In this document: in pieces, positions 2,529 through 24,418 of the stretch
How positions within the stretch are numbered: the stretch's first letter is position 1
How the letters are laid out: every line of letters begins with the position of its first letter
Assembly (NCBI GenBank): GCA_012511395.1
Contig: JAAZGD010000057.1
Location: forward strand, 1-44,770
Origin: Clostridiales bacterium
Lineage (GTDB): Bacteria > Bacillota > Clostridia > Peptostreptococcales > Anaerovoracaceae
Direction: 5' to 3'
Length of the DNA stretch: 44,770 bases
Translations under genes and position numbers: made by a program
The notes under the pieces: model-generated
The model's input: the letters and a program-made list of their open reading frames with translations, nothing else
Databases searched by the model: none
Told to the model about the DNA's origin: nothing

Positions 2529-2798
2529 TCATCTCGTAGATACTCGGTATGTAGGAAAAAATAAGAGTCGCTGCATCTTTAATTTGATGCAACGGCTCAT
2601 TTTCATAAGGAATTCTGCCAAAAGGAACGGGACTGTCTTCATTTTCTGTAAGGGACGCAGGCAGATAAATTTTAGGCGAATAATACCCATAACAAAGGGC
2701 GTTTCTAAATGCTCCGAAAGATAGATACTATCTCTTTCATGAACAGCATTTTTGTAAGTCCATAAGTGAGAAAATGTATTTACTTTCCAAATCCACAT
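2529..2798 (-). pseudogene. Decayed fragment of an M56 (BlaR1/MecR1-type) sensor-peptidase gene
   Basis: The ORF reads ...IYLSEHLETPFVMGIIRLKF.... A 1-nt frame change at that point gives PKIYLPASLTENED..., the typical M56 segment SPFxxGIIRPKIYLP. There is no N-terminal TM region and no intact HExxH. It overlaps the 3' end of the MoeA-like gene. Confidence 0.35.
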
Positions 2799-4996: not shown

Positions 4997-5821
4997 TTAA
5001 AGATCCTCCATTAGCGACCTTATCTTAATCATTTCTGCCGTAATGCTGACAGCTATTTCTTCGGGGCTTTTACCGCCTATGGGAAGGCCTATGGGAGAAT
5101 GGACTTTATCCAGCTCCTCCTGGGTAAAGCCATCCTTTAAAAGTCTGTCATATATGCCCTTGACCTTTGATTTGCTTCCAATCATCCCGATATAGGCATG
5201 GTCTCTTTTTAAAGCTTGTTTTAACACCTCATAATCTCCCTGATGACCTCTTGTTACGATTACTATGAAGGAAGTTTTACAGGTTGTGATTTGTGAAAAA
5301 GAATCTTCAAAGGAAGGTATAAGGATTACATCTTTGGATAAAGGAAAGAGTTCCTTATCTGCATACTCTTCCCTGTCATCCACCATAACAGTATCAAAGG
5401 ACACATATCTTAAAAGAGGCTCCAAACTTCTTCCTATGTGGCCGCAGCCGAAAATATAGCTTGTGAAATTCAAGCGAAAGCTATTAAGAAAATCTTCTCC
5501 CTTGTCGTGAGGGTAGTATTGGAAATGGACGAAAGCCGTGCCGCCGCACTGCATATCAAGGCCTTTTGATTCATCTTCAGTTAAGGTGAATTCTTCCACA
5601 TGAGGTTCGGATCTGTCGAAAAAATCCAAGGCCATCTTTTGAATCAGCCCCTCAAGGGCACCGCCCCCCACAGTTCCGGCACAGCTGCCGTCTCTTGCCA
5701 TAACAAGAAACGCACCTCTTTTTCCCGGGGATGAACCCAGTGTGTCCGTAATCTCCGCTATTACAAAAGCCTTGTCTTCTCTGACAAGGTCCTTAACAAA
5801 ATCCGTTGCTTTCTTTTTCAA
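4997..5821 (-). CDS. xdhC: XdhC/CoxI-family molybdenum-cofactor insertion chaperone
   Basis: 274 aa. It has an N-terminal XdhC_CoxI-like segment (GSSPGKRGAFLVMARDGSCAGTVGGGALE) and a C-terminal Rossmann segment (IFGCGHIGRSL...VMVDDREE). Confidence 0.8.
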   Translation of the reverse strand: MKKKATDFVKDLVREDKAFVIAEITDTLGSSPGKRGAFLVMARDGSCAGTVGGGALEGLIQKMALDFFDRSEPHVEEFTLTEDESKGLDMQCGGTAFVHFQYYPHDKGEDFLNSFRLNFTSYIFGCGHIGRSLEPLLRYVSFDTVMVDDREEYADKELFPLSKDVILIPSFEDSFSQITTCKTSFIVIVTRGHQGDYEVLKQALKRDHAYIGMIGSKSKVKGIYDRLLKDGFTQEELDKVHSPIGLPIGGKSPEEIAVSITAEMIKIRSLMEDL

Positions 5822-5835: not shown

Positions 5836-6513
5836 TCAGGATTGGGAGTTTGACAGAACTCCTTTTTTCATCATGTATACCGTATCGCCCAACAGTTCTC
5901 CTTCCTTCCTGTTATGGGAAACTAGGATTGAAGGGATCTTAAAGGTCTCTTTTATAAAGAGAAACTCTTTGTACATGGTTTCTTTAGTGTCTTCATCAAG
6001 AGCAGAAAAAGGTTCATCAAGGAGAAGAAGGGAGGGCTTGGTAACAATAGCTCTGGCAAAGGCTATTCTCTGTTTTTCACCTCCCGAGGTTTCCCCCGGC
6101 CTTCTGTTTTCAAGGTGAAGAATTCCCAAAGTCTCCATGGTGTTTTTTGCTTATTCCAGTTTTTCCGCTCCCGTTAGGCCAAGCTTCTCTTTATTCTGAT
6201 TAATAATACCATACATAATGTTATCAAGGACAGTCATGTGAGGAAAGAGATGGTAATTTTGAAATACATATCCTATATCCCTTCTTTTTACAGGGATATC
6301 AATTTTCTTACCGCCCTCCGTTTTTTTATAAAGCACTTTGTTCTCAAGGCTAATTTCACCTCTGTCGGGAACAAGAAGACCTGCTATTAGATTCAAAAAA
6401 GTGGTTTTCCCGGAACCGGAGGCGCCTTGAATAACGGTGACTCCTTCAAGGAATTCACCTTCACATTTTAGATTGAATGTTCCAATATTCTTTTCCACAT
6501 TGAAATACAACAT
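5836..6513 (-). pseudogene. modC: Molybdate ABC transporter ATPase ModC interrupted by an in-frame TAA
   Basis: ORF 6151-6513 carries Walker A ([16 protein letters not shown]). ORF 5836-6138 carries the signature and Walker B ([13 protein letters not shown]...[12 protein letters not shown]). Both lie in the same reading frame and are separated only by TAA (6151-6153) plus 4 codons. Confidence 0.8.
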
Positions 6514-6533
6514 AGTTTTTCTTGTTTCCTTTT

Positions 6534-7196
6534 TTACAGTCTGAAATCTTTTTTCTTTAGGTACATGTTCATGAGAAAGATCAGCAGAAAGCTGAAAACA
6601 GTCATTAACACCACCAGCTGCTGAGCAAGAGGGGAGTTTCCCGACTGAACCGCATAATATATGGCTGTTGGAATAGTTTGAGTCTTGTTTGGAATATTCC
6701 CGGCCACCATAAGAGTGGCGCCGAATTCACCAAGAGCCCTTGCAAAGGTCAAAGCTATTCCGCTTATGATCCCGGGATAGGAAAGGGGGAGCAGCACGGT
6801 GAAGAAAATCTTCACTTCCCCGCTTCCAAGGGTTCTGGCTGCTTTTTCATAGGATGGATCCACAGACAGAAAGGCGGCTTTGGCATTCTGATACATTAAG
6901 GGTAAGGCCACTACTGAAGAGGCTATGACGCAAGCCCCCCAGGTGAACACCACCTGAAGATGGAAGTTTTCCAAAAGGAGCATGCCTAAAGGCCCCCTTT
7001 TGCCAAACAGGTAAAGAAGAATGTAACCTGTTACAGAAGGGGGCAATATCAGGAGAAGAATAATCAATGTTTCAAAAAAGTTTTTAAAAGGCACAGAGCG
7101 CTTAGTTAGAAAATAGGCGATTAAGGTGCCTGTTATAAAGGCTATAAAGGTGGCGACAATGGCCACCTTTACAGACAATAGTATTGGAGTCCACAT
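6534..7196 (-). CDS. modB: Molybdate ABC transporter permease
   Basis: 220 aa and multi-TM. It has the EAA-type loop [23 protein letters not shown] typical of ModB/CysTW permeases, and sits between modA and modC. Confidence 0.85.
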
Positions 7197-7212
7197 GATG
7201 GTATCCTTTTTA

Positions 7213-7980
7213 TTAAATTACATCGAAGCTGTAGGATTCAAGTATTTCTTTTGCGTCATCGGTTTTTAGAAACTCAAGAAAGGCCACAGCCATTTCCTGA
7301 TTATCACCCTCATTAAGAGCGGCTACAGGATAAACTATAGGCTTATGTGAATCAGCAGGAAAATTCTCAACCACTGCCCCTGTCTTTAAAAGAACAGCAT
7401 CTGTAAGATACACAACTCCGCAGTCCACATTGCCTGAATCAACGTACTCAAGAACGGCTCTTACATCCTTTGCATAGATTACCTTGCTTTCAAGGCCGTC
7501 CCACAGGCCTAAGGAAGTGAGAGCATCAAAAGCATATTGACCTGCAGGAACACTTTCTGGTTCTCCTATGGCTATACTATCTACTTCTGAAAGATTGGCT
7601 AATGTAATATCATTCATTTTCTCAGAAGAAGCTATAAGGGTAAGAGTGTTTCTGATAAGGTCTTCTCTTGTGTCTTCAATAAGAAGGTCCTCCTCCTCTA
7701 AAGCATCCATATGGCTTTTGGAAGCTGAGATAAATACATCACAGGGTGCACCCTCAAGGATCTGAGTTTTTAAGGAGCCGGAGCTTCCGAAGTTAAATTC
7801 AATCTTTACATTGTGCTCCGACTCAAAGAGAGCGGCAATGTCAGTCAGGGCATCGGTAAGGCTTGCGGCTGCAGACACGCTTAATACTGTTAACTCTTCC
7901 TCCTGTGGGGTATCAGAGCAGGCAGAAAAAGAAAACAGGACAAGTAAAATCAGCATTGCATAAATCAGGAATCTTTTCAT
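7213..7980 (-). CDS. modA: Molybdate-binding lipoprotein
   Basis: Signal peptide with lipobox FSFSAC. The ModA-like motifs are SAAASLTDAL and FNFGSSGSLKTQILEGAPCDVFISAS. I placed the start at MKRFLIY (7980) rather than the longest ORF (8013). Confidence 0.85.
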   Translation of the reverse strand: MKRFLIYAMLILLVLFSFSACSDTPQEEELTVLSVSAAASLTDALTDIAALFESEHNVKIEFNFGSSGSLKTQILEGAPCDVFISASKSHMDALEEEDLLIEDTREDLIRNTLTLIASSEKMNDITLANLSEVDSIAIGEPESVPAGQYAFDALTSLGLWDGLESKVIYAKDVRAVLEYVDSGNVDCGVVYLTDAVLLKTGAVVENFPADSHKPIVYPVAALNEGDNQEMAVAFLEFLKTDDAKEILESYSFDVI

Positions 7981-8033
7981 AACAAACCTCCAAAGTATAT
8001 AGAAACTAACCAAAACTAACTAAACCCAACTGA

Positions 8034-8124: not shown

Positions 8125-8646
8125 ATGGAAGAAGTGCTGTATACTCCCGAGGAACTGGCAGAAAAATTAAAGCTGTCAAAGTATACCATCTACGAAATGA
8201 TTAAAAGAAATGAAATAGAGGCTCATAGAATAGGCAGATCCTTGCGTATTTCAGAAGGGCAGCTTCAGGATTATCTCATAAGAACAAGAGCCAAAGAAAA
8301 TACCTTTGACGGTCATATAGAATTTGAAAAGGGAATTCAGTACGGGGTAATAAGAGATGTAAAAATCGCTGTTAATACAGACCTTGAAGGCAAGGTAAGA
8401 ATATACATTAAGCCTGAAGATATAATTTTAAGCAGAGGTACATTTGTAAGCAGTGCAAGAAACATGCATTACGGCAAAGTCCTGGACCTTATGTATGATG
8501 ACAGACTGGCGAAGCTTATTTTAGATATAGGGATTCCTCTGGTAGTATTAATAACAAAAAGATCTTTGGATGAGATGGAGATAAAGATAGGTGACTATCT
8601 CTATGCCGTTTTTAAAACCATGTCAGTGAAGGTTACAAAGAGATAG
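8125..8646 (+). CDS. Excisionase-type HTH plus TOBE (Mop-like molybdate-binding) transcriptional regulator
   Basis: The N-terminus LYTPEELAEKLKLSKYTIYEMIKRNEIEAHRIGRSLRI matches an HTH_17/MerR-like excisionase-family HTH. The C-terminus NMHYGKVLDL...LVVLITKRSLDEMEIKIGDYLYAVFKTMSVKV is TOBE-like. It is divergent from modA. Confidence 0.7.
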   Translation: MEEVLYTPEELAEKLKLSKYTIYEMIKRNEIEAHRIGRSLRISEGQLQDYLIRTRAKENTFDGHIEFEKGIQYGVIRDVKIAVNTDLEGKVRIYIKPEDIILSRGTFVSSARNMHYGKVLDLMYDDRLAKLILDIGIPLVVLITKRSLDEMEIKIGDYLYAVFKTMSVKVTKR

Positions 8647-9607
8647 TTTTCTTTTTAGCCTCCCTTTCCTGAACCTTGTCCAGCCTTTTCAATACACTTT
8701 TACAGGAACATGGCTCTTTTATGAACCTTGATATGTCACCTGTCCTGTAGCGAAGAAAGGGCATGCCTTCTCTTGTAAGGGTAGTCATTACTATTTCCCC
8801 CCACTGACCGTCGGGGAGGATTTTTTTTGTTTGAGGGTGGATTATTTCTATAAAAATATCGTTTTCTCTTAAGTGGTATCCCACAGGGGGATCAATTTGG
8901 GAATCCCTGCAGCTCATGGCACAGCCATAGCCTGTTTCCGTCATACCGTAGTGCTCAAAAACCTTGGAACCCCATATATTCTTAATTGAAGTGACAGTAT
9001 GGAGGCTTACGTAATCTGCGCTTAAAAGAACTGATTCAGGCCGTAGATAGGGCTTTCTTTCCATAAGGCCGAGGAGTAAAGAGGGAGGACCTATAATGGA
9101 GGTTATACCATCTTCATCAGGATTAAATGTGGGCTGTGCCCCGAGACGGGTAACGGCTTTTTCTAAAAGCAAGCCCAGAGAGCCTTCCGCTTCGTGGGGA
9201 AAGAGAATCAGAACCTTGTCCTTTTTGGAAATCATGCATCTTAAACCGAAGTTAAAATAGTCCATGGTATTCTCTTGGTCCTTTTCCGTAAAAAAAACCC
9301 TTTTGGGCTCACCTTGGGAGCCGCTTGTAAAGATTGTGACCACCCTTTGGATTCTGCTCTTAGGAACACAGAGCATATCTGAATAATTATCTTTTAAATC
9401 GGAGGTTGTGGTAAAGGGTATGTCTTCCCAGGGCAAAGAAGGGTTAAGCCTCTTTCTGTGAAAGGGGCTTTGTTCATATACATAGAAGATAAGGCCTTCT
9501 CTTTTATTCTTAACGTAGCTGTCAATGGCTTCTCTTGTTAGAGGGAGGTCTTTAGAAAGTCCGAGCTTTTCTTTAATAAAGGGATCAAGATACATTTTTA
9601 CTACCAC
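8633..9607 (-). CDS. PaaK / F390-synthetase-like adenylate-forming enzyme lacking the C-terminal subdomain
   Basis: The AMP-binding motifs are FTSGSQGEPKRV, YGMTETG and RYRTGD. The ORF stops about 35 aa after the TGD motif, at the position of the usual hinge. The start is GTG 9607 or ATG 9595. It overlaps the stop of the upstream gene. Confidence 0.7.
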   Translation of the reverse strand: MVVKMYLDPFIKEKLGLSKDLPLTREAIDSYVKNKREGLIFYVYEQSPFHRKRLNPSLPWEDIPFTTTSDLKDNYSDMLCVPKSRIQRVVTIFTSGSQGEPKRVFFTEKDQENTMDYFNFGLRCMISKKDKVLILFPHEAEGSLGLLLEKAVTRLGAQPTFNPDEDGITSIIGPPSLLLGLMERKPYLRPESVLLSADYVSLHTVTSIKNIWGSKVFEHYGMTETGYGCAMSCRDSQIDPPVGYHLRENDIFIEIIHPQTKKILPDGQWGEIVMTTLTREGMPFLRYRTGDISRFIKEPCSCKSVLKRLDKVQEREAKKKTISL

Positions 9608-9987
9608 TCTAAAAGATCTGTAAGCTTTTCATAGGTGGCTTGAATCAAGGTGGGGCAAAGGGTCTCCTTGCGGGAGTCGTCGTCTCCTACAAGCATGTAA
9701 CAGGAAGTAGTTCCGAAGGTTTCTGTAAACCAGTCATTTAACTGTGAGATTCTATATTCTTTTGCCTTCTCGTTATCTATGAGAGAGAGAAGACAGAACC
9801 CTGCTGAAAGGGCGCCACACTTTTCTGTAAGGCCCATACCGCCGCAAAGACCTCTCATAGCTTTAATAAGATCAGGGTTATCCTTTCCAAGATGTTCCAA
9901 AGCCAGAATGAAAATAATCTGGCTGCAGCAGTAGCCTTCAAGGGACAGCATCATAATTTTTTCTTTCATATTTTTATACCTTTTCAT
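9601..9987 (-). CDS. C-GCAxxG-C-C family (putative redox-active Cys) protein
   Basis: The motifs are GYCCSQII, EKCGALSAGFCLL, SCYMLV and LCPTLI, spaced as in the C_GCAxxG_C_C family. An alternative start lies at 9969 (MKEKIMM). Confidence 0.65.
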   Translation of the reverse strand: MKRYKNMKEKIMMLSLEGYCCSQIIFILALEHLGKDNPDLIKAMRGLCGGMGLTEKCGALSAGFCLLSLIDNEKAKEYRISQLNDWFTETFGTTSCYMLVGDDDSRKETLCPTLIQATYEKLTDLLEW

Positions 9988-10678
9988 AAACTAAAAGACA
10001 GTACCCTGTGTTTTTACTTTGCGCTTCCGCCGGCACATAATCATCAAGGGAGCCTTCCTTCATAATAATTTCAGCTGCATAAGTAGTAAGGTCATAGGTT
10101 CTGTCTTCAAAGAGAAGTTCCTTGAATCCTATTTTCTCAATATCAGGTCTAAGTCTGTCCATAAGAAGGACTTTATTAAAGACATAAGTGGATGGAGGAG
10201 TTTCCTTTTCATCCTCTGAAAGTGTACCCTGTTTATGTCTTTCCTGATAATCGTAAACTTTTTCATCTACTTTTTTTTTATTAAAATCATCCAAAGTCTT
10301 CCAGTAAAGAGAAGAGATTAAAAGTTTTCCGCCTTTTTTTAGAACACAGTAGGCTTCGTGGACAGCCTCCAAAGGCAAATTGATTTCTGAGAGAACGCAC
10401 TCCATTAAGATGCCGTCAAAGGTATGGGAGGAAAAGCCATCAAGAAATTCCCCGTCTCCTATTTGAAAATCTATATGAGGGAACTTTTCTTTGGCCTTCC
10501 CGATTTTTTCTGCATTTAGATCTATGGCCGTTGGAACTAAAGAGTATTCTTCATAAAGGAAGTTGGCAGTATCTCCTTCTCCTGAACCTATATCAAGGAC
10601 CTTGTCTCCCTCTTTAAAATTACAGATTTCCAATCCTCTTCTTGTTATGTCGAATCCGCCTGGTCTTTTAAGACTCAT
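9974..10678 (-). CDS. Class I SAM-dependent methyltransferase
   Basis: Motif I is VLDIGSGEGDTANFL, post-I is AIDLN, and a further motif is ILMECVL. The start ATG at 10676-10678 forms an ATGA overlap with the radical SAM stop. The longest ORF would start at 10726. Confidence 0.75.
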   Translation of the reverse strand: MSLKRPGGFDITRRGLEICNFKEGDKVLDIGSGEGDTANFLYEEYSLVPTAIDLNAEKIGKAKEKFPHIDFQIGDGEFLDGFSSHTFDGILMECVLSEINLPLEAVHEAYCVLKKGGKLLISSLYWKTLDDFNKKKVDEKVYDYQERHKQGTLSEDEKETPPSTYVFNKVLLMDRLRPDIEKIGFKELLFEDRTYDLTTYAAEIIMKEGSLDDYVPAEAQSKNTGYCLLVYEKV

Positions 10679-12060
10679 TTTCTTTCTCCTTCCAGCCGTT
10701 CTCTGTGATAAATATTGTATGAGCAAAAGGGAATTACCCTGTTGTCAGGTGATAACACATGAACTCTGCAGCGCTTCAGCCTTTCCTGATCTACAGACAG
10801 GCAGTCCTGAAAGGCCATGGAAGATAAAGTGAACATGGAACGCTTGCAGTTATACAGAAAGCTGTCAAAGGAATCGGGGGAATCAGCTGAGCAGCAGCAT
10901 GTGTTTCCCTTGCCGCCCCATTTATTTAAAACAAAGCCTCTGTCTTTAATAATGATATCCAAGGGGTCCACAGAAGTACAGCAGCAGGCAGGTTCTTCGA
11001 GAGTATCTTCTCTCAAAGGTGTTATGGTTTTATCCTCTGATATGGTAAAGGTGCCGTGAAATCCACAGAGGGGATGGCCTGTTGCCATGGGAGACAGCAT
11101 GTCTTTAGTAATTTTACCTTCTGTAGCCCTTTCAATCTCATCTAAAAGTTCAAACATTGTAACTCTTTTATTAAGAGTGTCTTTTACTGTATCTACAGGA
11201 TATCTGCCGAAGAAAGAGACGGGCTGAAAGTGAATCCCTGAGACTATATCGAGATTTTCAAAGAGAAAATCCATCATTTCCTTTATTTCATGAAAGTTTA
11301 CACCTTTAACAAGGGTAGGAACAAGGGTAACGGGAAGCTGTGCCTTTCTGCAGTTTTCAATGGCTTTTTTCTTTAAATGAAGAAGCCTTTCATTTCGTAA
11401 AGCCATATAAGTTTTATCATTTGTGGAATCGAATTGAAGAAAGACAACAGATGCGCCGTTTTCTTTAAGATTTTCAGCATAGCCCTCTTCTAGGGCAAGA
11501 CGTTTGCCATTTGTATTTATCTGTAAGTATGGAAAACTTAAATCCTTGGCTGTTTTCAACATTTCCGGCAAGTCATCCCTTACAGTCGGTTCGCCGCCTG
11601 AAAACTGTATGTTGTAGGGCCTTTCTTCTCCCAGAGACTTAAGAAATTTCAACTTTTCCTCTATTTCCAAAAGAGAGGGCTCAAATTCATCTATGGCTCT
11701 CTCAGATTCCGCAAAGCAGTAAGGGCAGTGTTGGTTGCACCGTTTAGTTATCTCAAGCAAAACGCAGCAGGGTGTCTGCATATGGTTTTCACAAGGGCCG
11801 CAATGAAGAGGGCACTCAGTATTGCCCTTAAAGGCGTCCGTTCCCTTAGTCAGAGGCTTTTTAGGAGGAATGTTAACGGTCTTTACAGAATCCCACTTCA
11901 AAAATGCTTCCAAAGAATCACATACTAAAAGAGAAAAATTTCCATGTTCAGGACAAGTTTTTTCCAGATAAACGAGATTGCCGGAAGCTTTGTAGCAAGC
12001 AGGTATAAGCTTTTGGCAACATGGACATAAACTGGTGGTTTTTCTGATAATTTCAGTCAA
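10675..12060 (-). CDS. Radical SAM enzyme with an N-terminal Zn-ribbon-like module and a Cys-rich C-terminal region
   Basis: TTG start with AAGGAGG 7 nt upstream. The Cys motifs are CPCCQ...CPEHG, CPLHCGPCENH, the radical SAM core CNQHCPYC, then ACCCTS and TCCCSA. The C-terminal signature is SSMAFQD...RVIPFCSYN. Confidence 0.8.
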   Translation of the reverse strand: MTEIIRKTTSLCPCCQKLIPACYKASGNLVYLEKTCPEHGNFSLLVCDSLEAFLKWDSVKTVNIPPKKPLTKGTDAFKGNTECPLHCGPCENHMQTPCCVLLEITKRCNQHCPYCFAESERAIDEFEPSLLEIEEKLKFLKSLGEERPYNIQFSGGEPTVRDDLPEMLKTAKDLSFPYLQINTNGKRLALEEGYAENLKENGASVVFLQFDSTNDKTYMALRNERLLHLKKKAIENCRKAQLPVTLVPTLVKGVNFHEIKEMMDFLFENLDIVSGIHFQPVSFFGRYPVDTVKDTLNKRVTMFELLDEIERATEGKITKDMLSPMATGHPLCGFHGTFTISEDKTITPLREDTLEEPACCCTSVDPLDIIIKDRGFVLNKWGGKGNTCCCSADSPDSFDSFLYNCKRSMFTLSSMAFQDCLSVDQERLKRCRVHVLSPDNRVIPFCSYNIYHRERLEGERK

Positions 12061-12084
12061 AATAAAGCCTCCTTAAACAAGGAA

Positions 12085-12113
12085 ATTATATAGGGAGGGT
12101 GATTTTTTGTCAA
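12085..12113 (-). promoter_or_regulatory. Consensus sigma-A promoter of the radical SAM operon
   Basis: On the minus strand it reads TTGACA (12108-12113), a 17-nt spacer, then TATAAT (12085-12090), about 25 nt upstream of the SD. Confidence 0.7.
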
Positions 12114-12199: not shown

Positions 12200-12281
12200 C
12201 AAGGTGGAATATTTTCAAACAATCTCAACTTATATTTATTGTGATTTCTCACAGGAAAAAGATATCAGGGAGGAAGTATCT

Positions 12282-15131
12282 ATGAAATTGCGGAAGCTAA
12301 CTTTAAACATTAACGGCGCGGATAGAATGTTTATCTGCAATCCGGAAACAGACTGTTTGGCCACCGTTATAAGAAGACTTGGTTTAACGGGAACCAAAGT
12401 AGGCTGCGGAACAGGTGTATGTGGTGCCTGCTCTGTTATTCTTAACGGGAAAGTAGTAAGGTCCTGTACAAGGAAAATTTCATCTATTGAGGAATACAGC
12501 AAAATTACCACAATTGAAGGTATAGGTGCTCCAAATTACCTTCATCCTTTGCAGGTGGCATTTATGCATTCAGGTGCTGTACAGTGCGGTTTCTGTACAC
12601 CGGGATTCATCGTATCCGCTTACGGCCTTCTTCAGGAAAACCCCAATCCCACAAGAGAAGACGTGAGAGAGTGGTTCCATAAGCACAGAAACATTTGCAG
12701 ATGTACAGGTTACAAGCAAATAGTGGATGCAGTTATGAATGCAGCTAAAGTAATGCGAGGCGACTGCGCTTTGGAAGACATTATGGTGAAGCTACCTGAA
12801 GACAGGGATTACTACGGCAAGCCCTTAGTAAGGCCTGCAGCTCTTGCAAAGGTATGCGGTGTGGCTGACTACGGTGATGACATTGAGCTTAAGATGCCTG
12901 AAGGAACTCTTCATGCAGTATTTGTTCAGCCTAAAGTAACTCACCATGCGAAGCTTTTGAAGATCAATACGGAAGAAGCAGAAAAAATGCCGGGTGTATA
13001 TAAGATTATTACCCACAAGGATGTTAAAGGATCGAACAGATTGAATTTCTTCCAGCTTTCCGCAAGGACTCTTGCCACAGAGCAGAGCCATGTGCTTTTG
13101 GCTGAAGATAAAATATTCAACTACGGCGACGTTGTGGCCATGGTTGCGGCAGATACCAAAGAACATGCAAGAAATGCCGCTGCCAAGGTTACCATAGAAT
13201 TTGAGCAGCTGCCGGAATACTTAAATTACCTGGAAGCAGTAATGCCTGATGCTCAAAGAATCCATGATGACCATCCAAACGTATGGTGCCTGCAGCCCAC
13301 ATTGAAGGGCGAAGAGGATGTTAAAGGCCTTATAGATAAGTCGGCAAATGTGGTGGAAGGAAGCTTCTACTCCACAAGGGAGCCCCATATGCCTATTGAA
13401 GGCGATACCATTCAAGCTTACTGGGGCGACGACGGCATGTTGACAGTTCACTGTAAAGCTATGGCAATTTACGCAAATATAGGAGATATTGCAGAAGCCA
13501 CAGGAGTTGATCCTGAAAAGATCAGAGTGGTACAAAATCCAACGGGAGCATCCTTTGGATGGGGAATTGCCGGAGCCACTTATTCCCTGGCGGCTATAGC
13601 ATGCTTGGCCTGTGATGACCTTCCTGTTGCTCTGTCCATGAACTATCAGGAATTCATGGCCTTCAGCGGAAAACGTGCACCTTCCTTTACAAATGCAAGG
13701 CTTGCCTGCGATGATAAGGGCAAGATAATTGCTGCAGAGTGGGATTGCGGACTTGATCACGGCGCATATAACGAGCTGGGTGACGACCTGACCACAAGGC
13801 CTGCAAGGTTCACATTCTTCCCCTACAATGTGCCTAATGTTATGGCCCTTTGCAGGGTTGCATGTACAAACCATGCTTATGCAACTGCATATCGTGGTTA
13901 CGGCTCACCTCAAGCATACACATCTTCAGAAGCTCTCATGGATATGATGGCTGAAAAACTTGGAATGGACCCCTTTGAAATAAGATGGGTTAATATTGCA
14001 AGAGAAGGAGATCTTAATATTAACAGCTACCCCTTTGTGGATTACCCAATGGAAAAAATGATGCAGACCATGAAACCGATTTATGAAAAGGCAGTGGCAA
14101 AAGCAAAGGCTGAGGACACTCCTAAAAAGAGAAGGGGAGTGGGAATTGCATGGGGTGGCTACAATGTAACTGAGGGAACCTCCGACCAGTGCACAGTAGC
14201 TCTGGAGTTAAGCCCTGAAGGAAAATTTGTAAAATACGATACTTGGCAGGACCAGGGCCAGGGCGGAGACATAGGATCTCTTATGACTACACTGGAAGCT
14301 CTGAAGCCTTTAGGTGTTTCAGTGGATGATATAGTTCTCATACAAAACGACAGCAAACACTGTCCTGACTCAGGAGCAACCGCTTCAAGCCGTCAGCACT
14401 ATATGAACAGCATCGCAGTTTCCATGGCAGCAGAAAAACTTATAAACGCCATGAAGAAAAAGGACGGAACCTTTAGAACCTACGATGAGATGGTGGCGGA
14501 AAAGATACCTACAAAGTATGAGGCACAGTATGAGAATCCAACAGATCCCGACCTTGCCGATCTTGATCCAAACACAGGCGTAGGAAATCCAACACCTGCA
14601 TATACCTATGCTCTGTTCATGGCAGAAGTGGAAGTGGATACAGAGACGGGCAAGACAAAGGTTATAGGCTATACATCTGTAAATGACGTAGGAGTAATCG
14701 GAAATGTGGCAGCAGTGGAAGGACAAGCTTACGGCGGACTTTCCCACTGCATAGGTTTTGCTCTTTCTGAAAACTATGATGATGTTAAAAAGCATGACAA
14801 TATTTTCGGCGCAGGAATACCAACCTGTACTGACATACCTGATGACTTCAATCTTATTCATCATGTTACTCCAAGGAAGAAGAACCCCTTTGGTTCATCA
14901 GGTTCATCGGAGGCATTCCAGTCCTCAGGTCATATGGCAGTAATAAATGCTATTAACAATGCCTGCGGCGTAAGAATTTATGAGTTGCCTGCAACTCCTG
15001 CGAAAGTTAAGGCCGGGCTGGATAAGCTTGCAAAGGGTGAGGAGATTAAACCGCCTAAGAAATACTTCCTGGGCTCCGACTTCTATGAGGAGATGGCAAA
15101 CTTGAAAGCAAATCCCATTAAGGTGGAATAG
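12282..15131 (+). CDS. Molybdopterin-dependent aldehyde oxidoreductase of the xanthine-oxidase family (single-chain 2x[2Fe-2S] plus Mo domain, Desulfovibrio MOP type)
   Basis: The start MKLRKLTLNINGA follows an AGGGAGG SD. The 2Fe-2S motifs are GCGTGVCGACSV and QCGFCTPGF...CRCTGY. There is no FAD domain. The Mo-domain segments align by eye with D. gigas MOP, including the catalytic Glu context FGSSGSSE. Confidence 0.85.
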   Translation: MKLRKLTLNINGADRMFICNPETDCLATVIRRLGLTGTKVGCGTGVCGACSVILNGKVVRSCTRKISSIEEYSKITTIEGIGAPNYLHPLQVAFMHSGAVQCGFCTPGFIVSAYGLLQENPNPTREDVREWFHKHRNICRCTGYKQIVDAVMNAAKVMRGDCALEDIMVKLPEDRDYYGKPLVRPAALAKVCGVADYGDDIELKMPEGTLHAVFVQPKVTHHAKLLKINTEEAEKMPGVYKIITHKDVKGSNRLNFFQLSARTLATEQSHVLLAEDKIFNYGDVVAMVAADTKEHARNAAAKVTIEFEQLPEYLNYLEAVMPDAQRIHDDHPNVWCLQPTLKGEEDVKGLIDKSANVVEGSFYSTREPHMPIEGDTIQAYWGDDGMLTVHCKAMAIYANIGDIAEATGVDPEKIRVVQNPTGASFGWGIAGATYSLAAIACLACDDLPVALSMNYQEFMAFSGKRAPSFTNARLACDDKGKIIAAEWDCGLDHGAYNELGDDLTTRPARFTFFPYNVPNVMALCRVACTNHAYATAYRGYGSPQAYTSSEALMDMMAEKLGMDPFEIRWVNIAREGDLNINSYPFVDYPMEKMMQTMKPIYEKAVAKAKAEDTPKKRRGVGIAWGGYNVTEGTSDQCTVALELSPEGKFVKYDTWQDQGQGGDIGSLMTTLEALKPLGVSVDDIVLIQNDSKHCPDSGATASSRQHYMNSIAVSMAAEKLINAMKKKDGTFRTYDEMVAEKIPTKYEAQYENPTDPDLADLDPNTGVGNPTPAYTYALFMAEVEVDTETGKTKVIGYTSVNDVGVIGNVAAVEGQAYGGLSHCIGFALSENYDDVKKHDNIFGAGIPTCTDIPDDFNLIHHVTPRKKNPFGSSGSSEAFQSSGHMAVINAINNACGVRIYELPATPAKVKAGLDKLAKGEEIKPPKKYFLGSDFYEEMANLKANPIKVE

Positions 15132-15223
15132 CAAAATCTTTAAAAAGCTGAATAACAAATGAAAGTCGGTAGGTTTGCGGGATGGTTCATTTCGCAAGCC
15201 TATCGTTTTATAAAGGTGAAAGT

Positions 15224-17497
15224 ATGGCATTGGAAGATTATTTGGACAATTTTAAAAACTGCCTTGAAAAGGAGGAGCCTTTTTGTCGTTCTGCCTGTCC
15301 TTTTAGGTTTGACGTAATAGGGATGATGGAAAGGATTAAGAGAGGCGCCTATAGAGGAGCATATCAGCTGTACAGGGACCGGGTGGTTTTTCCTGAAATC
15401 GTATCGATACTCTGTCCAAAACCCTGTGAGGCTGTGTGTCCAAGAAAGGATTACGGAGGCTCTTTGAGGATAAGGGACTTGGAAAAAGCCGTTGTGGAAA
15501 ACACAGAGGACAGGACTCCCACAGTTTTTAATGTGCCCAAAAAAGAAAAAACTCTGGACATCATCGGCGGAGGTATCAGCGGCCTTGCGGTGTTGGCAAG
15601 GCTTGCCGCAAAGAATTACAAGGTTACTCTATATGAAAAGAGCCACAGGTTGGGAGGCCATCTGTGGGAAAGGCTTCCTGACGGTGAGTTTTTAAAAGAC
15701 ATGGAGAACCAGCTTTCAGGCCTTGATTATACATTGAAGCTTAACCATGAGGTGAAGGATTTAAAGGAAGTCCTTCCTGCTTCGGCAGTCTTTGTTGCTA
15801 CAGGAAAAGGAGGCCAACTTTTTTCGGCAAGCCATGAGGACGACCTTTTGGTACCTAAGGAAGGCGAACCCCTTTTAGTTGCGGGGGGCAGATTATTTAT
15901 TGACGATGATATTTACAGCCTTTCAGACAGCCTTGATAAAGCAGTTATGATAGACAACTATTTCAGAACGGGAAGAATCATACCTGCTAAAAAATCAGAG
16001 AAAACCAAAACAGTAGTGGATAAGAAAACCTGGCTCTTTGACGGTGTTAAGGGAAAAGAAGGACAACCTCTTTCGAAGGAAGAAATGTTAAAGGAAGCCC
16101 AAAGATGCTTTTTATGCCAGTGCGATTTTTGCAGAACAAACTGTGATATTTTGGAGTATGTGGATAAATGGCCCTTAAGAGTTAAGGATGAGGTGGTGGC
16201 TACCACCATACCGGGCTGGTCTGAGGTAAAAGCTACTCCCGCAAAAAGGCTTATGAGTTCAAGCAATCTGGAAGATCTTTTAAAAGAGGTGTGTCCTGAA
16301 AAAATAGACCTTGACGGCCTTCTTCTTGAGGGTAGAAAGAGCATGCATAGACAGGACAAGGCTCCTTGGGCTTTCCATGATTTCTGGCTAAAGGACATGG
16401 ACCATGCCGACTCGGAAAAAGCCGCTTTGGGAAGAATGAAGGGTGATAAAGAAAAGTGTGATTATTTGTTTTTCCCGGGATGTCAGCTTGGGGCAAGCCG
16501 TCCCGACCTTTTGGAGAAAGCAGTGGATATTTTCTTTTCAAAGGAGGAGAATTCAGGCCTTCTTCTTCAATGTTGCGGTGTACCTGCTCTTTGGGCAGGC
16601 AGGGAAGATGAATATAATGAAAAACTTAATTTCATAAGGAGCTTTTGGGAAAAGTCCGGGAGGCCAACCGTAGTGACCACTTGCCCCACCTGTCAAAAAA
16701 GGTTTAAGGAAGACCTGGAGGAAATTCCTGTTATCTCCTATTATGAATGGCTTGAGCATAAGAGTGTGGATATTAAAAAAAGCGATAAAGAGTATGCAAT
16801 ATTTGATGCATGCGCTGCAAGAGACTTTCCAAAAATCCATGAGGCAGTAAGAAGTCTTGCAGAAAGAGCGGGGAATTTTAAAGAGCTTCCTGAAAGGGAA
16901 GAGGGGGCCAAGTGTTGCAGCTTTGGAGGCCAGTCCTCCATCGCAAACCCGGGATTTAAGGATTTCGTAGTGGAAAAGAGAAGTTCCTTAAGCCATCTGC
17001 CCTATATAACCTATTGTGTAAATTGCAGAGATGCTTTCCTGGACAAAGAAAAGGAAGCAGTTCATATTTTGGACCTCGTATTTGGAACGGAAAAAGAAAT
17101 TGCCATGAAGGTTTCCACAGAAAGTGAAAGAAGAAGAAACAGAGAAACTCTTAAAAGAGCAGTGCTGAAAAAGCAGTGGGCAGAGGAAGTGAAGGAAGAA
17201 AAAATGGATATAGAACTTGTAATGTCAAAGGAAGTGGAAGAAAAAATCAGCGGTATGAGAATACTGGAGGAAGAGATTATTGAAACTATTGTTTTCTTAG
17301 AAAGCACAGGCAGAAAAATACGACATGAGGGGAAAAACACTTCTTCAGGGTATAAAGAGATAGGCTATATGACGTATTGGGTGGAATATGAAAAGCTTTC
17401 GGAAAATAAGTTTAAGGTTCACAACGCTTATTCCCATAGAATGAAAATAGAGCTGGAGGAGGTTTGGGATGGACGAAAAAGAGACGATCATATGTGA
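15224..17497 (+). CDS. Multidomain redox protein: GltD-like Fe-S N-terminus, FAD-type Rossmann segment, Cys-rich linker and two HdrD/GlpC-like CCG domains
   Basis: Motifs in order are CRSACPF...CPKPCEAVCP, IIGGGISGLAVLARLAAKNYKVTLYEKSHRLGG, CFLCQCDFCRTNC, FFPGCQLG, LLQCCGVPA, CPTCQ, KCCSFGG and YCVNCRD. I chose the start at MALEDYL (15224), which has an AAAGGTGA SD. Confidence 0.7.
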   Translation: MALEDYLDNFKNCLEKEEPFCRSACPFRFDVIGMMERIKRGAYRGAYQLYRDRVVFPEIVSILCPKPCEAVCPRKDYGGSLRIRDLEKAVVENTEDRTPTVFNVPKKEKTLDIIGGGISGLAVLARLAAKNYKVTLYEKSHRLGGHLWERLPDGEFLKDMENQLSGLDYTLKLNHEVKDLKEVLPASAVFVATGKGGQLFSASHEDDLLVPKEGEPLLVAGGRLFIDDDIYSLSDSLDKAVMIDNYFRTGRIIPAKKSEKTKTVVDKKTWLFDGVKGKEGQPLSKEEMLKEAQRCFLCQCDFCRTNCDILEYVDKWPLRVKDEVVATTIPGWSEVKATPAKRLMSSSNLEDLLKEVCPEKIDLDGLLLEGRKSMHRQDKAPWAFHDFWLKDMDHADSEKAALGRMKGDKEKCDYLFFPGCQLGASRPDLLEKAVDIFFSKEENSGLLLQCCGVPALWAGREDEYNEKLNFIRSFWEKSGRPTVVTTCPTCQKRFKEDLEEIPVISYYEWLEHKSVDIKKSDKEYAIFDACAARDFPKIHEAVRSLAERAGNFKELPEREEGAKCCSFGGQSSIANPGFKDFVVEKRSSLSHLPYITYCVNCRDAFLDKEKEAVHILDLVFGTEKEIAMKVSTESERRRNRETLKRAVLKKQWAEEVKEEKMDIELVMSKEVEEKISGMRILEEEIIETIVFLESTGRKIRHEGKNTSSGYKEIGYMTYWVEYEKLSENKFKVHNAYSHRMKIELEEVWDGRKRDDHM

Positions 17498-17663
17498 GAA
17501 ATGTAATGTAGAGATGGTGATTCTGGAAGCAGATTTCTCCTACTTAAAGAGATCCTTCAGACATCCTGTATACAGGTGTCCTTCCTGTGGCCAGGTCTAT
17601 ATCCCGGAAGAGCTGGCAAAGGGCAGGATGCAGGAAGTGGAAACCCTTCTTGAGGATAAATAG
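17469..17663 (+). CDS. Small zinc-ribbon (2x CxxC) protein
   Basis: A GGAGGAGG SD lies 6 nt before the ATG. The motifs are CEKC...CPSCG. It overlaps the last 29 nt of the upstream gene. Confidence 0.65.
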   Translation: MDEKETIICEKCNVEMVILEADFSYLKRSFRHPVYRCPSCGQVYIPEELAKGRMQEVETLLEDK

Positions 17664-20896: not shown

Positions 20897-20910
20897 GGCG
20901 GAGGTTTTAA

Positions 20911-24405: not shown

Positions 24406-24418
24406 AGACTTCTTGGTG

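What the first reader, a model, noticed from the sequence alone, without database searches (positions are those of the whole stretch)
8633..12113. Radical SAM / SAM-methyltransferase / C-GCAxxG-C-C / adenylating-ligase operon embedded in a molybdenum-cofactor locus: candidate undescribed cofactor or ligand maturation pathway
**Seen in sequence.** Four minus-strand genes are translationally coupled. There is an ATGA overlap at 10675-10678, a 14-nt overlap at 9974-9987 and a 7-nt overlap at 9601-9607. A perfect TTGACA-17-TATAAT promoter drives them, and the first gene uses a TTG start behind AAGGAGG.

**Context.** The operon is divergent from a MOP-type aldehyde oxidoreductase, which in Desulfovibrio uses molybdopterin cytosine dinucleotide. 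On its other side lie modABC, xdhC, a MobA/MocA-like NTP transferase and a MoeA-like gene. None of the four proteins belongs to the canonical Moco pathway (MoaA-E, MogA, MoeA, MobA/MocA).

**The radical SAM enzyme.** It has an N-terminal CPCC...CPEHG module, CPLHCGPC before the CNQHCPYC core, two CCC triplets and a C-terminal ...AFQD...IPFCSYN. From memory, this architecture is shared with the archaeal MJ0619 pterin C-methylase and with tetraether synthase Tes.

**From recollection, unverified.** I also recall NCBI family models named after D. vulgaris loci DVU_1551 to DVU_1557. They cover an NTP transferase, an AMP-dependent ligase, a C-GCAxxG-C-C protein, a methyltransferase and a redox protein, next to the mop gene DVU_1559. 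No function is assigned to them.

**Inference.** The operon may methylate or otherwise decorate the pterin cofactor, or build a small ligand, for the adjacent Mo enzyme.
Basis: partly seen in the sequence, partly recalled or inferred. Interest (0 to 1): 0.85.

Follow-up and report, generated by a model that had tools for sequence, protein, structure and literature searches.

The report
Helper genes for a molybdenum enzyme
Four tightly packed genes (a radical SAM enzyme related to the archaeal tetraether-lipid synthase, a methyltransferase, a small cysteine-rich protein and a shortened adenylating enzyme) belong to a nine-gene set that travels with a molybdenum aldehyde oxidoreductase in distant anaerobes. 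NCBI already catalogues the set, I found no paper that tests its function, and gene fusions found here tie it to the enzyme that finishes the molybdenum cofactor.

Summary
Four co-directional, tightly packed minus-strand genes sit behind a perfect TTGACA-17-TATAAT promoter, divergent from a MOP-type aldehyde oxidoreductase (AOR) and next to modABC, xdhC and a MocA-like NTP transferase.

They are not uncatalogued. They hit the NCBIfam models TrsS, DVU_1556, DVU_1555 and DVU_1553, and the window carries all nine families of the D. vulgaris DVU_1551-1559 set.

The radical SAM enzyme is a paralogue of tetraether synthase Tes (GDGT-MAS, which is MJ0619). The "pterin methylase" comparison is obsolete.

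- The cassette is conserved in two distant TrsS clades, sampled as 80 genome loci and 60 metagenome loci.
- True Tes loci lack every cassette gene.
- TrsS occurs fused to the NTP transferase, the methyltransferase, the ligase or DUF5714 in different lineages.

The best reading is one accessory pathway working with the cytidylyltransferase/XdhC branch of molybdenum-cofactor maturation for this AOR. The chemistry is unresolved. This is a new member of a known but functionally uncharacterised kind.

The parts
12085..12113 (-). Sigma-70-type promoter TTGACA-17-TATAAT of the four-gene operon. The RBS AAGGAGG lies at 12068-12074.
   Evidence: 12/12 consensus match; sequence read directly.
10675..12060 (-). 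TrsS-clade radical SAM enzyme (461 aa, TTG start), a paralogue of tetraether synthase Tes/GDGT-MAS.
   Evidence: - NF045646 TrsS 466 bits (cut-off 490), against Tes 348 bits.
- PF23545 + PF04055.
- 7TOL E 3e-82.
- AF2 model TM 0.79 to 7TOM.
- Metal-site motifs conserved.
9974..10678 (-). DVU_1556-type class I SAM methyltransferase. Its ATG at 10678 overlaps the TrsS stop (ATGA).
   Evidence: - NF045667 148 bits (cut-off 155).
- Methyltransf_11/25/31.
- Fused to TrsS in P0273, P0288, P0304 and P0307.
9601..9969 (-). DVU_1555-type C-GCAxxG-C-C protein (122 aa from ATG 9969; 128 aa if ATG 9987 is used).
   Evidence: - NF045669 116 bits (cut-off 103) and PF09719.
- 99% identical to an NCBI protein named DVU_1555 family from an Anaerovoracaceae MAG.
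- All-helical AF2 model with no PDB neighbour.
8633..9595 (-). DVU_1553-type PaaK-like adenylating enzyme that lacks the ANL C-terminal domain (320 aa from ATG 9595; 324 aa if GTG 9607 is used).
   Evidence: - NF045666 338 bits (cut-off 300).
- The PaaK alignment stops at residue ~331 of 437.
- Invariant tail Lys319 aligns with the terminal Lys of full-length homologues.
- Fused to TrsS in P0269, P0305, P0302 and P0343.
12279..15131 (+). MOP-type (single-chain, MCD-dependent) aldehyde oxidoreductase, divergent from the operon.
   Evidence: - NF045668 1184 bits (cut-off 1100).
- 1DGJ E 5e-253; D. gigas MOP 1SIJ/1VLB E 1e-249, full length.
15182..17497 (+). FAD/NAD(P)-binding, two-CCG-domain iron-sulfur protein (the "diclust_near_Sec" family).
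   Evidence: NF045663 671 bits (cut-off 530); Fer4_20, NAD_binding_8 and CCG domains.
17469..17663 (+).
   Evidence: NF045645 79.9 bits (cut-off 60); follows the CCG protein directly in 48 of 53 loci.
8125..8646 (+). ModE-like regulator (HTH_17 + TOBE/Mop domain), convergent with the ligase gene.
5836..8013 (-). modA, modB and modC. modC is interrupted by an in-frame TAA at 6151-6153. The genes sit behind a second perfect consensus promoter at 8038-8066.
4997..5821 (-). XdhC-family Moco chaperone related to the AOR-specific subfamily.
   Evidence: NF045664 279 bits (cut-off 350); XdhC_CoxI + XdhC_C. It follows the ligase in most related loci.
3800..4996 (-). MocA-like NTP transferase (the N-terminal part of the DVU_1551 family) fused to a CobC-like histidine phosphatase.
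   Evidence: - NF045665 189 bits over profile positions 2-225 of 359; His_Phos_1 at residues 216-397.
- The family is fused to TrsS in P0266, P0270, P0282 and in the single ORF L091:8825-11413.
2780..3796 (-). MoCF_biosynth-domain (MoeA/MogA-like) protein with a Cys-rich C-terminus.
   Evidence: 69-77% identical in L005, L018 and L078.

Best explanation
**Identity (about 0.9).** The four genes are the TrsS, DVU_1556, DVU_1555 and DVU_1553 part of a nine-family cassette. The other five families are the DVU_1551 NTP transferase/phosphohydrolase, an XdhC, the DVU_1557 small redox protein, a CCG/FAD protein and a MOP-type AOR. The cassette is conserved from Desulfovibrio-type organisms to this Anaerovoracaceae genome.

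**Function (about 0.45, inferred).** TrsS, the methyltransferase, the adenylating enzyme and the MocA-like cytidylyltransferase with its phosphohydrolase work as one physically coupled pathway. That pathway finishes or tailors the molybdopterin cytosine dinucleotide cofactor, or a ligand at its Mo centre. XdhC then inserts the product into the AOR.

**Proposed steps (all inferred).**
1. TrsS keeps every metal site of Tes, so it should cleave SAM reductively.
2. It should then abstract H from an unactivated sp3 carbon, possibly a methyl group placed by the methyltransferase.
3. It should make a new C-C or C-S bond through a carbon-sulfur intermediate on its C-terminal [4Fe-4S] cluster.
4. Its lipid pocket is replaced by a short Cys-rich segment, so the substrate is small or protein-bound, not a membrane lipid.
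5. The ligase keeps the adenylation lysine but, in this lineage, has lost the domain needed for CoA thioester formation. It probably makes an acyl- or cofactor-adenylate that is passed to another nucleophile.
6. The C-GCAxxG-C-C protein and the DVU_1557 protein travel with the AOR/CCG pair. They are more likely thiol or metal redox partners than biosynthetic enzymes.
For: **Shown**
- Family hits for all nine genes.
- Conserved order TrsS-MTase-CGA-ligase-XdhC-NTP transferase in Clostridia. Of 56 loci with at least 6 kb downstream: MTase 48, ligase 44, CGA 41, NTP transferase 39, XdhC 37. AOR is present in 23 of 33 well-flanked loci.
- The same nine genes are collinear in a second clade whose TrsS is only 32-44% identical to the window's, for example L082 and L093. 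Of 23 well-flanked loci: ligase 21, MTase 17, CGA 16, AOR 13. Four sampled TrsS of that clade pass the curated TrsS cut-off.
- Negative control: 20 low-identity loci, of which the four scanned are true Tes, carry none of AOR, Diclust, CGA, XdhC or the NTP transferase. A methyltransferase hit occurs in 2 and a ligase hit in 1 of the 18 with usable flanks.
- Rosetta-stone fusions, with both halves above curated cut-offs wherever they were scanned against NCBIfam: NTP transferase(+HD)-TrsS, MTase-TrsS, TrsS-MTase, TrsS-ligase, TrsS-DUF5714.
- One fusion was verified as a single 862-aa ORF inside a complete cassette, L091:8825-11413.
- Tes metal ligands are conserved: C12X2C15X20C36X2H39, C83/C87/C90, C108/C112/C115, and M415 aligned to the labile Met439.
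- The ligase truncation retains the terminal Lys.
- In one subclade a CobW-type metallochaperone GTPase is inserted after TrsS, and some of those loci sit beside moaA, moaB/mogA, moaE, moeA and moeB.
Against: - No biochemical or genetic data exist for any of the accessory families; the literature searches were empty.
- Moco/MCD has no carboxylate for an ANL enzyme to activate.
- MCD formation needs no phosphatase, yet the cassette always carries one.
- From my own knowledge, high-resolution D. gigas MOP structures show an unmodified MCD. Any product must therefore be labile, transient or not on the pterin.
- About 30-40% of well-flanked loci have no AOR within 10 kb.
- The methyltransferase and C-GCAxxG-C-C protein can be replaced by DUF5714 (Anaerovorax odorimutans, L004), and the ligase can be absent (L005, L078).
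- In C. ljungdahlii the AOR, CCG protein, 4-Cys protein and C-GCAxxG-C-C protein are described as a four-gene set without mention of a radical SAM gene.
Confidence: 0.5

Rival explanations
1. The cassette makes a separate small-molecule or protein-bound redox cofactor, which the AOR/CCG-protein/DVU_1557/C-GCAxxG-C-C module then uses as electron acceptor or donor. One example would be a thiol or dithiol made by LipA/BioB-like sulfur insertion into an activated acid. Under this reading the Moco genes are present only because the AOR needs them.
For: - The CCG domains are of the heterodisulfide-reductase type.
- The C-GCAxxG-C-C gene sits beside AOR/Diclust rather than TrsS in L006, L028, L043, L053 and L059, and likewise in C. 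ljungdahlii.
- An ANL enzyme needs a carboxylate, which Moco lacks.
- The methyltransferase's next-best named hit is BioC.
- Tes chemistry goes through a carbon-sulfur(cluster) bond.
Against: - TrsS is fused to a MocA/PucB-like NTP transferase, a family known (my own knowledge) only from Moco dinucleotide formation.
- XdhC and the NTP transferase follow the ligase in the same operon in most loci.
- No candidate product is known.
Confidence: 0.2
2. The relation is reversed. Aldehyde oxidation by AOR, passed through the CCG/FAD protein and the rubredoxin-like DVU_1557 protein, supplies the low-potential electrons that TrsS needs. TrsS then makes an unrelated product.
For: - DVU_1557 lies directly upstream of TrsS in many loci, for example L002, L009, L028, L035 and L120.
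- Radical SAM enzymes need a low-potential reductant (established knowledge).
Against: - This does not explain the NTP transferase-TrsS fusions.
- It does not explain the CobW-type GTPase and Moco-biosynthesis neighbours of TrsS where AOR is not adjacent.
- Cells normally use flavodoxin or ferredoxin for this purpose (my own knowledge).
Confidence: 0.1
3. It is a catabolic route. An aldehyde is oxidised by the AOR, and the resulting acid is activated by the PaaK-like ligase, as in anaerobic phenylalanine/phenylacetate degradation. The radical SAM enzyme and methyltransferase act on the same substrate.
For: - The ligase's nearest characterised relatives are phenylacetate-CoA ligases.
- AOR plus an acid-CoA ligase is a known catabolic pairing (my own knowledge).
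Against: - In this lineage the ligase lacks the CoA-thioester-forming domain and scores far below the PaaK cut-off (99 against 646 bits).
- No downstream CoA-ester enzymes are conserved nearby.
- Fusions of TrsS with the Moco-type NTP transferase make no sense in catabolism.
Confidence: 0.07
4. TrsS is a bacterial tetraether or membrane-spanning lipid synthase like Tes, and its position next to the AOR is incidental.
For: - 32% identity and TM 0.79 to GDGT-MAS.
- Bacterial Tes homologues have been proposed as brGDGT synthases.
Against: - Tes model score 348, below the cut-off of 450 and below the TrsS score.
- The lipid-pocket region (residues 333-405) is not alignable and is shorter.
- The true Tes loci recovered here have none of the cassette genes, whereas TrsS loci do.
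- There are fusions to Moco-type and other cassette enzymes.
Confidence: 0.03
5. It is a RiPP maturation operon: a radical SAM enzyme, a methyltransferase and an ATP-dependent enzyme acting on a peptide.
For: The enzyme types resemble some RiPP clusters.
Against: - There is no room for a precursor gene. The four genes abut or overlap, and the only conserved small ORF is the DVU_1557 zinc-ribbon protein next to the CCG protein.
- Hits to SPASM and RiPP maturase models cover only the radical SAM core and fall far below their cut-offs.
- No protease or exporter is present.
Confidence: 0.01

Closest known systems
TrsS / DVU_1551-DVU_1559 neighbourhood (NCBIfam NF045645, NF045646, NF045663-NF045669; TrsS listed from Haft & Tolstoy 2025, mSystems 10:e0141724)
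   Same: All nine families hit in the window. Five are above curated cut-offs: DVU_1553, DVU_1555, DVU_1557, the CCG protein and the AOR. Four are just below or partial: TrsS, DVU_1556, XdhC and DVU_1551. The gene neighbourhood matches that of loci whose proteins pass all cut-offs.
   Different: - This is the Cys form, with no selenocysteine.
- The operon is split by a ModE-like gene and modABC.
- The NTP transferase carries a histidine phosphatase instead of the HD domain.
- The ligase lacks the C-terminal domain.
- I could not read the 2025 paper, so I do not know what function, if any, it proposes.
Tetraether lipid synthase Tes / GDGT-MAS (MJ0619; PDB 7TOL, 7TOM)
   Same: - Same four-domain build.
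- Rubredoxin-like CX2CX20CX2H site, N-terminal CX3CX2C(+His) cluster, radical SAM CX3CX2C, and C-terminal cluster domain with the labile Met.
- E 3e-82, TM 0.79.
   Different: - The central lipid-binding region is missing, replaced by a short Cys-rich, poorly predicted segment.
- It scores below the Tes cut-off.
- The genomic context is entirely different.
- It works like Tes at the level of radical initiation and probably the cluster-sulfur intermediate, but it is not a Tes.
XdhC/MocA-dependent maturation of xanthine-oxidase-family enzymes (R. capsulatus XdhC; E. coli PaoD + MocA for PaoABC)
   Same: An XdhC-family chaperone and a MocA-like NTP transferase sit next to the client Mo enzyme.
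   Different: The known systems need only the chaperone, the cytidylyltransferase and a cysteine desulfurase (my own knowledge). Here four to five further conserved proteins, including a radical SAM enzyme, are genetically and physically (by fusion) tied to the cytidylyltransferase.
Dedicated metallocofactor assembly sets that combine radical SAM, methyltransferase, nucleotidyl transferase and adenylating enzyme (the Hcg proteins of the FeGP cofactor; also NifB, and CoxDEF for the Mo-S-Cu site of CO dehydrogenase)
   Same: The same mix of enzyme types is dedicated to one metalloenzyme. This comparison is by analogy, from my own knowledge.
   Different: There is no sequence relationship beyond the radical SAM core (NifB and HydE are only remote fold matches). 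It is an analogy, not membership.
Phenylacetate-CoA ligase PaaK / coenzyme F390 synthetase group of ANL enzymes
   Same: The N-terminal domain motifs TSGSQGEPK, YGMTE and YRTGD, with best PDB hits 2Y27 and 4R1L.
   Different: - In this lineage the C-terminal domain is reduced to a ~10-residue tail that keeps one invariant Lys.
- Scores are far below the family cut-offs.
- The substrate is unknown.

Membership tests
TrsS (NF045646, radical SAM (seleno)protein) | Reaches NCBI's curated equivalog cut-off (490 bits). | tested here: not met
   The score is 466.1 bits, 5% short. It is still the best model by 118 bits over Tes. A. odorimutans P0027, 51% identical to the window protein, is named TrsS by NCBI. 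The cut-off is an annotation rule, so I file the protein as TrsS-clade and state the shortfall.
TrsS (NF045646) | Full-length match with the Tes-type metal-site cysteines and histidine. | tested here: met
   The match covers profile positions 2-434 of 441. Invariant residues are C12, C15, C36, H39, C83, C87, C90, C108, C112, C115, C431, C446 and M415.
TrsS (NF045646) | Neighbourhood of DVU_1551/1553/1555/1556/1557 families, XdhC, the CCG protein and a MOP-type AOR. | tested here: met
   All are present in the window. The same set surrounds TrsS genes that pass the cut-off.
TrsS (NF045646) | Selenocysteine (optional in the family). | tested here: not met
   There is no in-frame TGA in the window gene, and none aligned to Cys in 160 related loci. 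This is the Cys form.
Tes / GDGT-MAS (NF045702) | Curated cut-off of 450 bits and a full-length match that includes the lipid-pocket region. | tested here: not met
   The score is 347.6 bits in two stretches. Residues 333-405 are unaligned with 7TOL. True Tes from metagenomes score 632-716.
Class D radical SAM pterin methylase (the MJ0619 annotation) | A demonstrated pterin C-methylase activity of the founding member. | not testable with these tools
   The founding annotation could not be corroborated and was judged incorrect by the structure paper. The family definition itself has lapsed.
DVU_1553 family AMP-dependent ligase (NF045666) | Curated cut-off of 300 bits and a full-length match. 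| tested here: met
   338 bits over profile positions 3-330 of 331.
PaaK phenylacetate-CoA ligase (TIGR02155) | Cut-off of 646 bits and both ANL domains. | tested here: not met
   99.5 bits. The alignment ends at PaaK residue ~331 of 437.
DVU_1555 family C-GCAxxG-C-C protein (NF045669) | Curated cut-off of 103 bits and the conserved Cys pattern. | tested here: met
   116 bits and PF09719 at 81 bits. Invariant residues are C14, C15, C42, C51, C59, C90 and C105, in the numbering of the 122-aa form.
DVU_1556 family methyltransferase (NF045667) | Curated cut-off of 155 bits. | tested here: not met
   148.1 bits over profile positions 4-212 of 213, with a ~37-residue insertion. It has the same position after TrsS as in 48 of 56 loci. 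This is a marginal shortfall.
Canonical Moco pathway (MoaA) | Equivalog cut-off and the C-terminal GTP-binding cluster domain. | tested here: not met
   75-93 bits against cut-offs of 231-325, covering the radical SAM core only.
RiPP radical SAM/SPASM maturases | A SPASM domain and an adjacent precursor peptide gene. | tested here: not met
   Only core hits appear, far below their cut-offs. There is no free intergenic space or conserved small precursor ORF.

The most novel reading that the evidence does not exclude
MOP-type aldehyde oxidoreductases of anaerobes carry, in vivo, a cofactor feature that has never been seen because it is labile or lost on aerobic purification. It could be a carbon- or sulfur-based ligand or bridge at the Mo/dithiolene centre, or a modified dinucleotide. 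It would be built by a Tes-like radical SAM enzyme working in complex with the cytidylyltransferase, a methyltransferase and an adenylating enzyme. That would amount to a new branch of molybdenum-cofactor biosynthesis.
Probability: 0.2. Interest if true: 0.9.

Novelty: new member of a known kind. Interest (0 to 1): 0.58.

Why it matters
- **Moco maturation may be incomplete as understood.** By my own knowledge, xanthine-oxidase-family enzymes are thought to need only Moco synthesis, a nucleotidyl transferase, XdhC and a sulfurase. A radical SAM enzyme, a methyltransferase and an adenylating enzyme are conserved across phyla and repeatedly fused to the cytidylyltransferase. That points to a step still missing for the MOP-type enzymes of sulfate reducers and gut/sediment clostridia.
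- **A caution for lipid biomarker work.** "Bacterial Tes homologues" have been counted as candidate brGDGT synthases. A large clade of them (TrsS) sits in Mo-enzyme cassettes and lacks the lipid pocket. Homology searches for tetraether producers will therefore pick up false positives.
- **Testable.** D. vulgaris Hildenborough carries the founding cassette (inferred from the DVU_ locus tags in the NCBIfam family names, not checked on its genome here), and by my own knowledge it is genetically tractable.

Tried and rejected
- **Haft & Tolstoy 2025 and Haft & Gwadz 2023.** Neither is held in the library. What those authors say about TrsS function is unknown to me.
- **Literature.** Searches for DVU1550-1560, for TrsS, and for C-GCAxxG-C-C plus AOR found no functional study.
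- **Selenocysteine position.** No Cys-aligned in-frame TGA appears in any of 160 loci.
- **Moco riboswitch or other RNA.** Nothing reached Rfam gathering scores in the window.
- **Shared operator.** I found none between the two perfect promoters.
- **Homology of C-GCAxxG-C-C with DUF5714.** hhalign gave probability 0.1, so I rejected it. Only a short CG-A-x-x-G-like motif is shared.
- **Fold of the C-GCAxxG-C-C protein.** The model is confident (pLDDT 88.7), but it has no PDB neighbour (best E 5).
- **Word-index search with the 128-aa protein.** It returned only 7 relatives.
- **ThiS/MoaD-like carrier idea for the C-GCAxxG-C-C protein.** Rejected: the protein is all-helical and has no conserved C-terminal Gly-Gly.
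- **Whole-genome phylogenetic profile (TrsS against AOR presence).** Not possible with these tools; only ±10 kb neighbourhoods were available.

Full report
**1. What is at the coordinates**

Four minus-strand ORFs fill 8633-12060:
- a 461-aa radical SAM protein (TTG start at 12060)
- a methyltransferase
- a C-GCAxxG-C-C protein
- an AMP-binding protein

The promoter TTGACA-17-TATAAT at 12113-12085 is a 12/12 match. It is one of only two such sites in the 15.4 kb scanned; the other precedes modA. AAGGAGG lies 7 nt before the TTG.

The ATGA overlap at 10675-10678 is real. The other two overlaps depend on start choice. Homologue N-termini, an AAAGG upstream and identical database proteins favour ATG 9969 and ATG 9595. 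Those starts give 4- and 5-nt gaps instead of 14- and 7-nt overlaps. Either way this is one compact operon. GC content is about 40%. Proteins 99-100% identical occur in an Anaerovoracaceae MAG.

**2. Family identities**

NCBIfam gives the following:

| Gene | Model | Bits | Cut-off |
|---|---|---|---|
| Radical SAM | TrsS (NF045646) | 466 | 490 |
| Radical SAM | Tes | 348 | 450 |
| Methyltransferase | DVU_1556 | 148 | 155 |
| C-GCAxxG-C-C | DVU_1555 | 116 | 103 |
| Ligase | DVU_1553 | 338 | 300 |

Around them:
- a MOP-type AOR (1184 bits, cut-off 1100), matching D. desulfuricans and D. gigas structures at E about 1e-250 over the full length
- the "diclust_near_Sec" FAD/CCG protein (671 bits, cut-off 530)
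- an AOR-type XdhC (279 bits, cut-off 350)
- the N-terminal half of the DVU_1551 NTP transferase, fused to a CobC-like histidine phosphatase

I also found a 64-aa gene at 17469-17663.

The window therefore holds all nine families of the D. vulgaris-named set. "Undescribed" is too strong. A 2026 review lists TrsS as a radical SAM selenoprotein family from Haft & Tolstoy 2025. I could not obtain that paper.

**3. The radical SAM enzyme**

The closest solved structure is GDGT-MAS, by sequence (7TOL, E 3e-82) and by model (TM 0.79). GDGT-MAS is MJ0619. Its earlier annotation as a pterin C-methylase could not be reproduced and was judged incorrect by the structure authors.

The window protein keeps these sites:
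- the rubredoxin-type site, with identical spacing (C12X2C15X20C36X2H39)
- the N-terminal cluster cysteines (C83, C87, C90)
- the radical SAM motif (C108, C112, C115)
- an invariant Met415 that aligns with the labile Met439 ligand of the C-terminal cluster

Residues 333-405 correspond to the Tes lipid pocket. They do not align, are shorter and Cys-rich (two CCC triplets), and are poorly predicted.

**4. The ligase and the small proteins**

The ligase aligns with PaaK only up to residue ~331 of 437. Full-length homologues exist. Their terminal lysine aligns with the invariant Lys319 in the short tail of the window protein. Adenylation is therefore probably retained, while the CoA-thioester conformation is lost in this lineage.

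The C-GCAxxG-C-C protein gives a confident all-helical model with no PDB neighbour. It has no ThiS-like C-terminus.

**5. Comparative genomics**

*Genome scan.* The scan returned 80 loci, nearly all Anaerovoracaceae and related Clostridia. Of the 56 with at least 6 kb downstream:
- methyltransferase 48, ligase 44, C-GCAxxG-C-C protein 41, NTP transferase 39, XdhC 37
- 26 have all five, in the order TrsS-MTase-CGA-ligase-XdhC-NTP transferase

Of the 33 with both flanks long, 23 have the AOR and 21 the CCG protein within 10 kb.

*Metagenome scan.* I seeded this with distant TrsS sequences. It returned 60 TrsS-clade loci (32-44% identical to the window TrsS) and 20 lower-identity loci.
- The distant TrsS loci show the same nine genes collinear. 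In L082 the order is MoeA-like, AOR, CCG protein, DVU_1557, MTase, CGA, XdhC, NTP transferase-HD, TrsS, ligase.
- Of 23 well-flanked loci: ligase 21, MTase 17, CGA 16, CCG protein 14, AOR 13.
- Four of them scanned against NCBIfam pass the TrsS cut-off at 502-668 bits.
- Four of the 20 low-identity loci were scanned and are true Tes (632-716 bits). The group carries none of AOR, Diclust, CGA, XdhC or the NTP transferase; a methyltransferase hit occurs in 2 and a ligase hit in 1. They serve as a built-in negative control.

*Chance.* Under a generous chance model the AOR association has P below 1e-10. The loci are not phylogenetically independent, so that figure overstates the evidence.

DVU_1557 follows the CCG protein directly in 48 of 53 loci.

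**6. Fusions**

An exhaustive HMMER search of 1.84 billion representatives found 452 relatives at E <= 1e-30. Among the best 150 are proteins in which TrsS is fused to:
- the DVU_1551 NTP transferase, with or without its HD domain (P0266, P0270, P0282)
- the DVU_1556 methyltransferase, in both orders (P0273, P0304; P0288, P0307)
- the DVU_1553 ligase (P0269, P0305, P0302, P0343)
- DUF5714 (P0255, P0293, P0356)

Both halves are above curated cut-offs wherever they were scanned against NCBIfam. One fusion is visible as a single 862-aa ORF inside a complete cassette on a 30-kb contig (L091:8825-11413). These fusions are the strongest evidence that the radical SAM enzyme, methyltransferase, ligase and cytidylyltransferase act together.

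**7. Variation**

- In one TrsS subclade a CobW-type G3E GTPase follows TrsS. Sometimes the rest of the cassette comes after it. Sometimes only a DUF5714 protein does, in loci next to moaA, moaB/mogA, moaE, moeA and moeB.
- In A. odorimutans, DUF5714 replaces the methyltransferase and the C-GCAxxG-C-C protein. The two small proteins are not detectably homologous.
- The NTP transferase always travels with a phosphohydrolase. It is an HD domain in the Desulfovibrio-type family, a histidine phosphatase here, and in L093 a separate histidine-phosphatase-HD fusion.
- The C-GCAxxG-C-C gene sits beside the AOR/CCG pair in some loci. C. ljungdahlii has two AOR + CCG + 4-Cys + C-GCAxxG-C-C sets that are induced on syngas.

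**8. Interpretation**

*Shown.* Identity, conserved synteny in two distant clades, specificity relative to Tes, fusions, conserved Tes metal sites, and the truncated ligase with a retained Lys.

*Inferred.* The cassette has a redox module (AOR, CCG protein, DVU_1557, C-GCAxxG-C-C) and a maturation module (TrsS, methyltransferase, ligase, NTP transferase/phosphohydrolase, XdhC). The maturation module acts on or around the MCD cofactor destined for the AOR. TrsS uses Tes-like H-abstraction and cluster-sulfur chemistry on a small or protein-bound substrate.

*Problems I cannot explain.* Moco has no carboxylate for the ligase. MCD synthesis needs no phosphatase. The D. gigas enzyme structure, as I recall it, shows ordinary MCD.

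*Rivals.* They are, in order of weight:
- a separate redox cofactor for the CCG module
- AOR as the electron supplier for TrsS
- aldehyde/acid catabolism
- lipid synthesis
- a RiPP

The last three are poorly compatible with the data.

**9. Novelty**

This locus is a further Cys-form member of a catalogued cassette for which I found no experimental function, here in a clostridial lineage that scores just under two curated cut-offs.

The open question is real and testable: what a Tes-like radical SAM enzyme does in molybdoenzyme maturation.

A practical by-product is that TrsS-type "bacterial Tes homologues" should not be read as tetraether-lipid synthases.

Noticed in passing
window 17469-17663 (+): A 64-aa CxxC...CPxCG protein of the DVU_1557 family (79.9 bits, cut-off 60). 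It overlaps the end of the CCG-protein gene by 29 nt.
   Followed up: yes
window 5836-6513 (-), stop at 6151-6153: modC is split into 120-aa and 100-aa ORFs by an in-frame TAA. Related loci have it intact. This may be a pseudogene or a sequencing error.
   Followed up: partly
window 3800-4996 (-); L093:12638-14400; P0266: The MocA-like NTP transferase of this cassette always comes with a phosphohydrolase. Here it is a CobC-like histidine phosphatase. In the Desulfovibrio-type family it is an HD(IG) domain. In L093 it is a separate His-phosphatase-HD fusion. MCD synthesis as known needs no phosphatase.
   Followed up: partly
window 87-830 (+); L012, L022, L030 and others: A DUF364/DUF4213 ("putative heavy-metal chelation") protein. 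Relatives recur a few kb from the cassette in 8-9 other loci. In L012 the flanking ORFs, an ATPase of the SufC/ABC cluster and unannotated ORFs of 337 and 362 aa, look like an ABC-transporter set.
   Followed up: partly
L024, L029, L047, L058, L061, L065, L077 and others (downstream of TrsS): In one subclade a CobW/HypB-type G3E GTPase is inserted directly after TrsS, sometimes with a DUF5714 (MbdU-like) protein. In L061 this lies beside moaA, moaB/mogA, moaE-like, moeA and moeB genes; L065 has a truncated moaA-like ORF nearby.
   Followed up: partly
window 8038-8066 (-): A second perfect TTGACA-17-TATAAT sits in front of modA, divergent from the ModE-like regulator gene (8125-8646). I found no operator shared with the TrsS promoter.
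   Followed up: partly
window 15167-15205 (+): An 18-bp-stem hairpin followed by a T run lies between the AOR stop (15131) and the CCG-protein gene. It could be a partial terminator setting the AOR:partner ratio.
   Followed up: no
window 18506-21822 (+): An anaerobic ribonucleotide reductase NrdD with a C-terminal glutaredoxin-like domain. The activase NrdG precedes it and a thioredoxin reductase follows.
   Followed up: no
window 22675-27304 (-): A SufBD-like + SufC-like pair, an MBL-fold protein, and two tandem MinD/ParA-type ATPases with 2x[4Fe-4S] ferredoxin inserts (weak MrpORP-like hits). This may be a metallocluster-handling set about 5 kb from the cassette.
   Followed up: no
window 2780-3796 (-): A MoCF_biosynth-domain protein with an unassigned N-terminal half and a C-terminal CMDCEVCTYPKCGFGK motif. 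It is 69-77% identical in L005, L018 and L078, much more conserved than its neighbours.
   Followed up: no
L065:7511-8074 and L070: MoaA-like ORFs of 187-197 aa that match only the second part of the radical SAM domain and lack the CX3CX2C motif. They lie next to TrsS.
   Followed up: no
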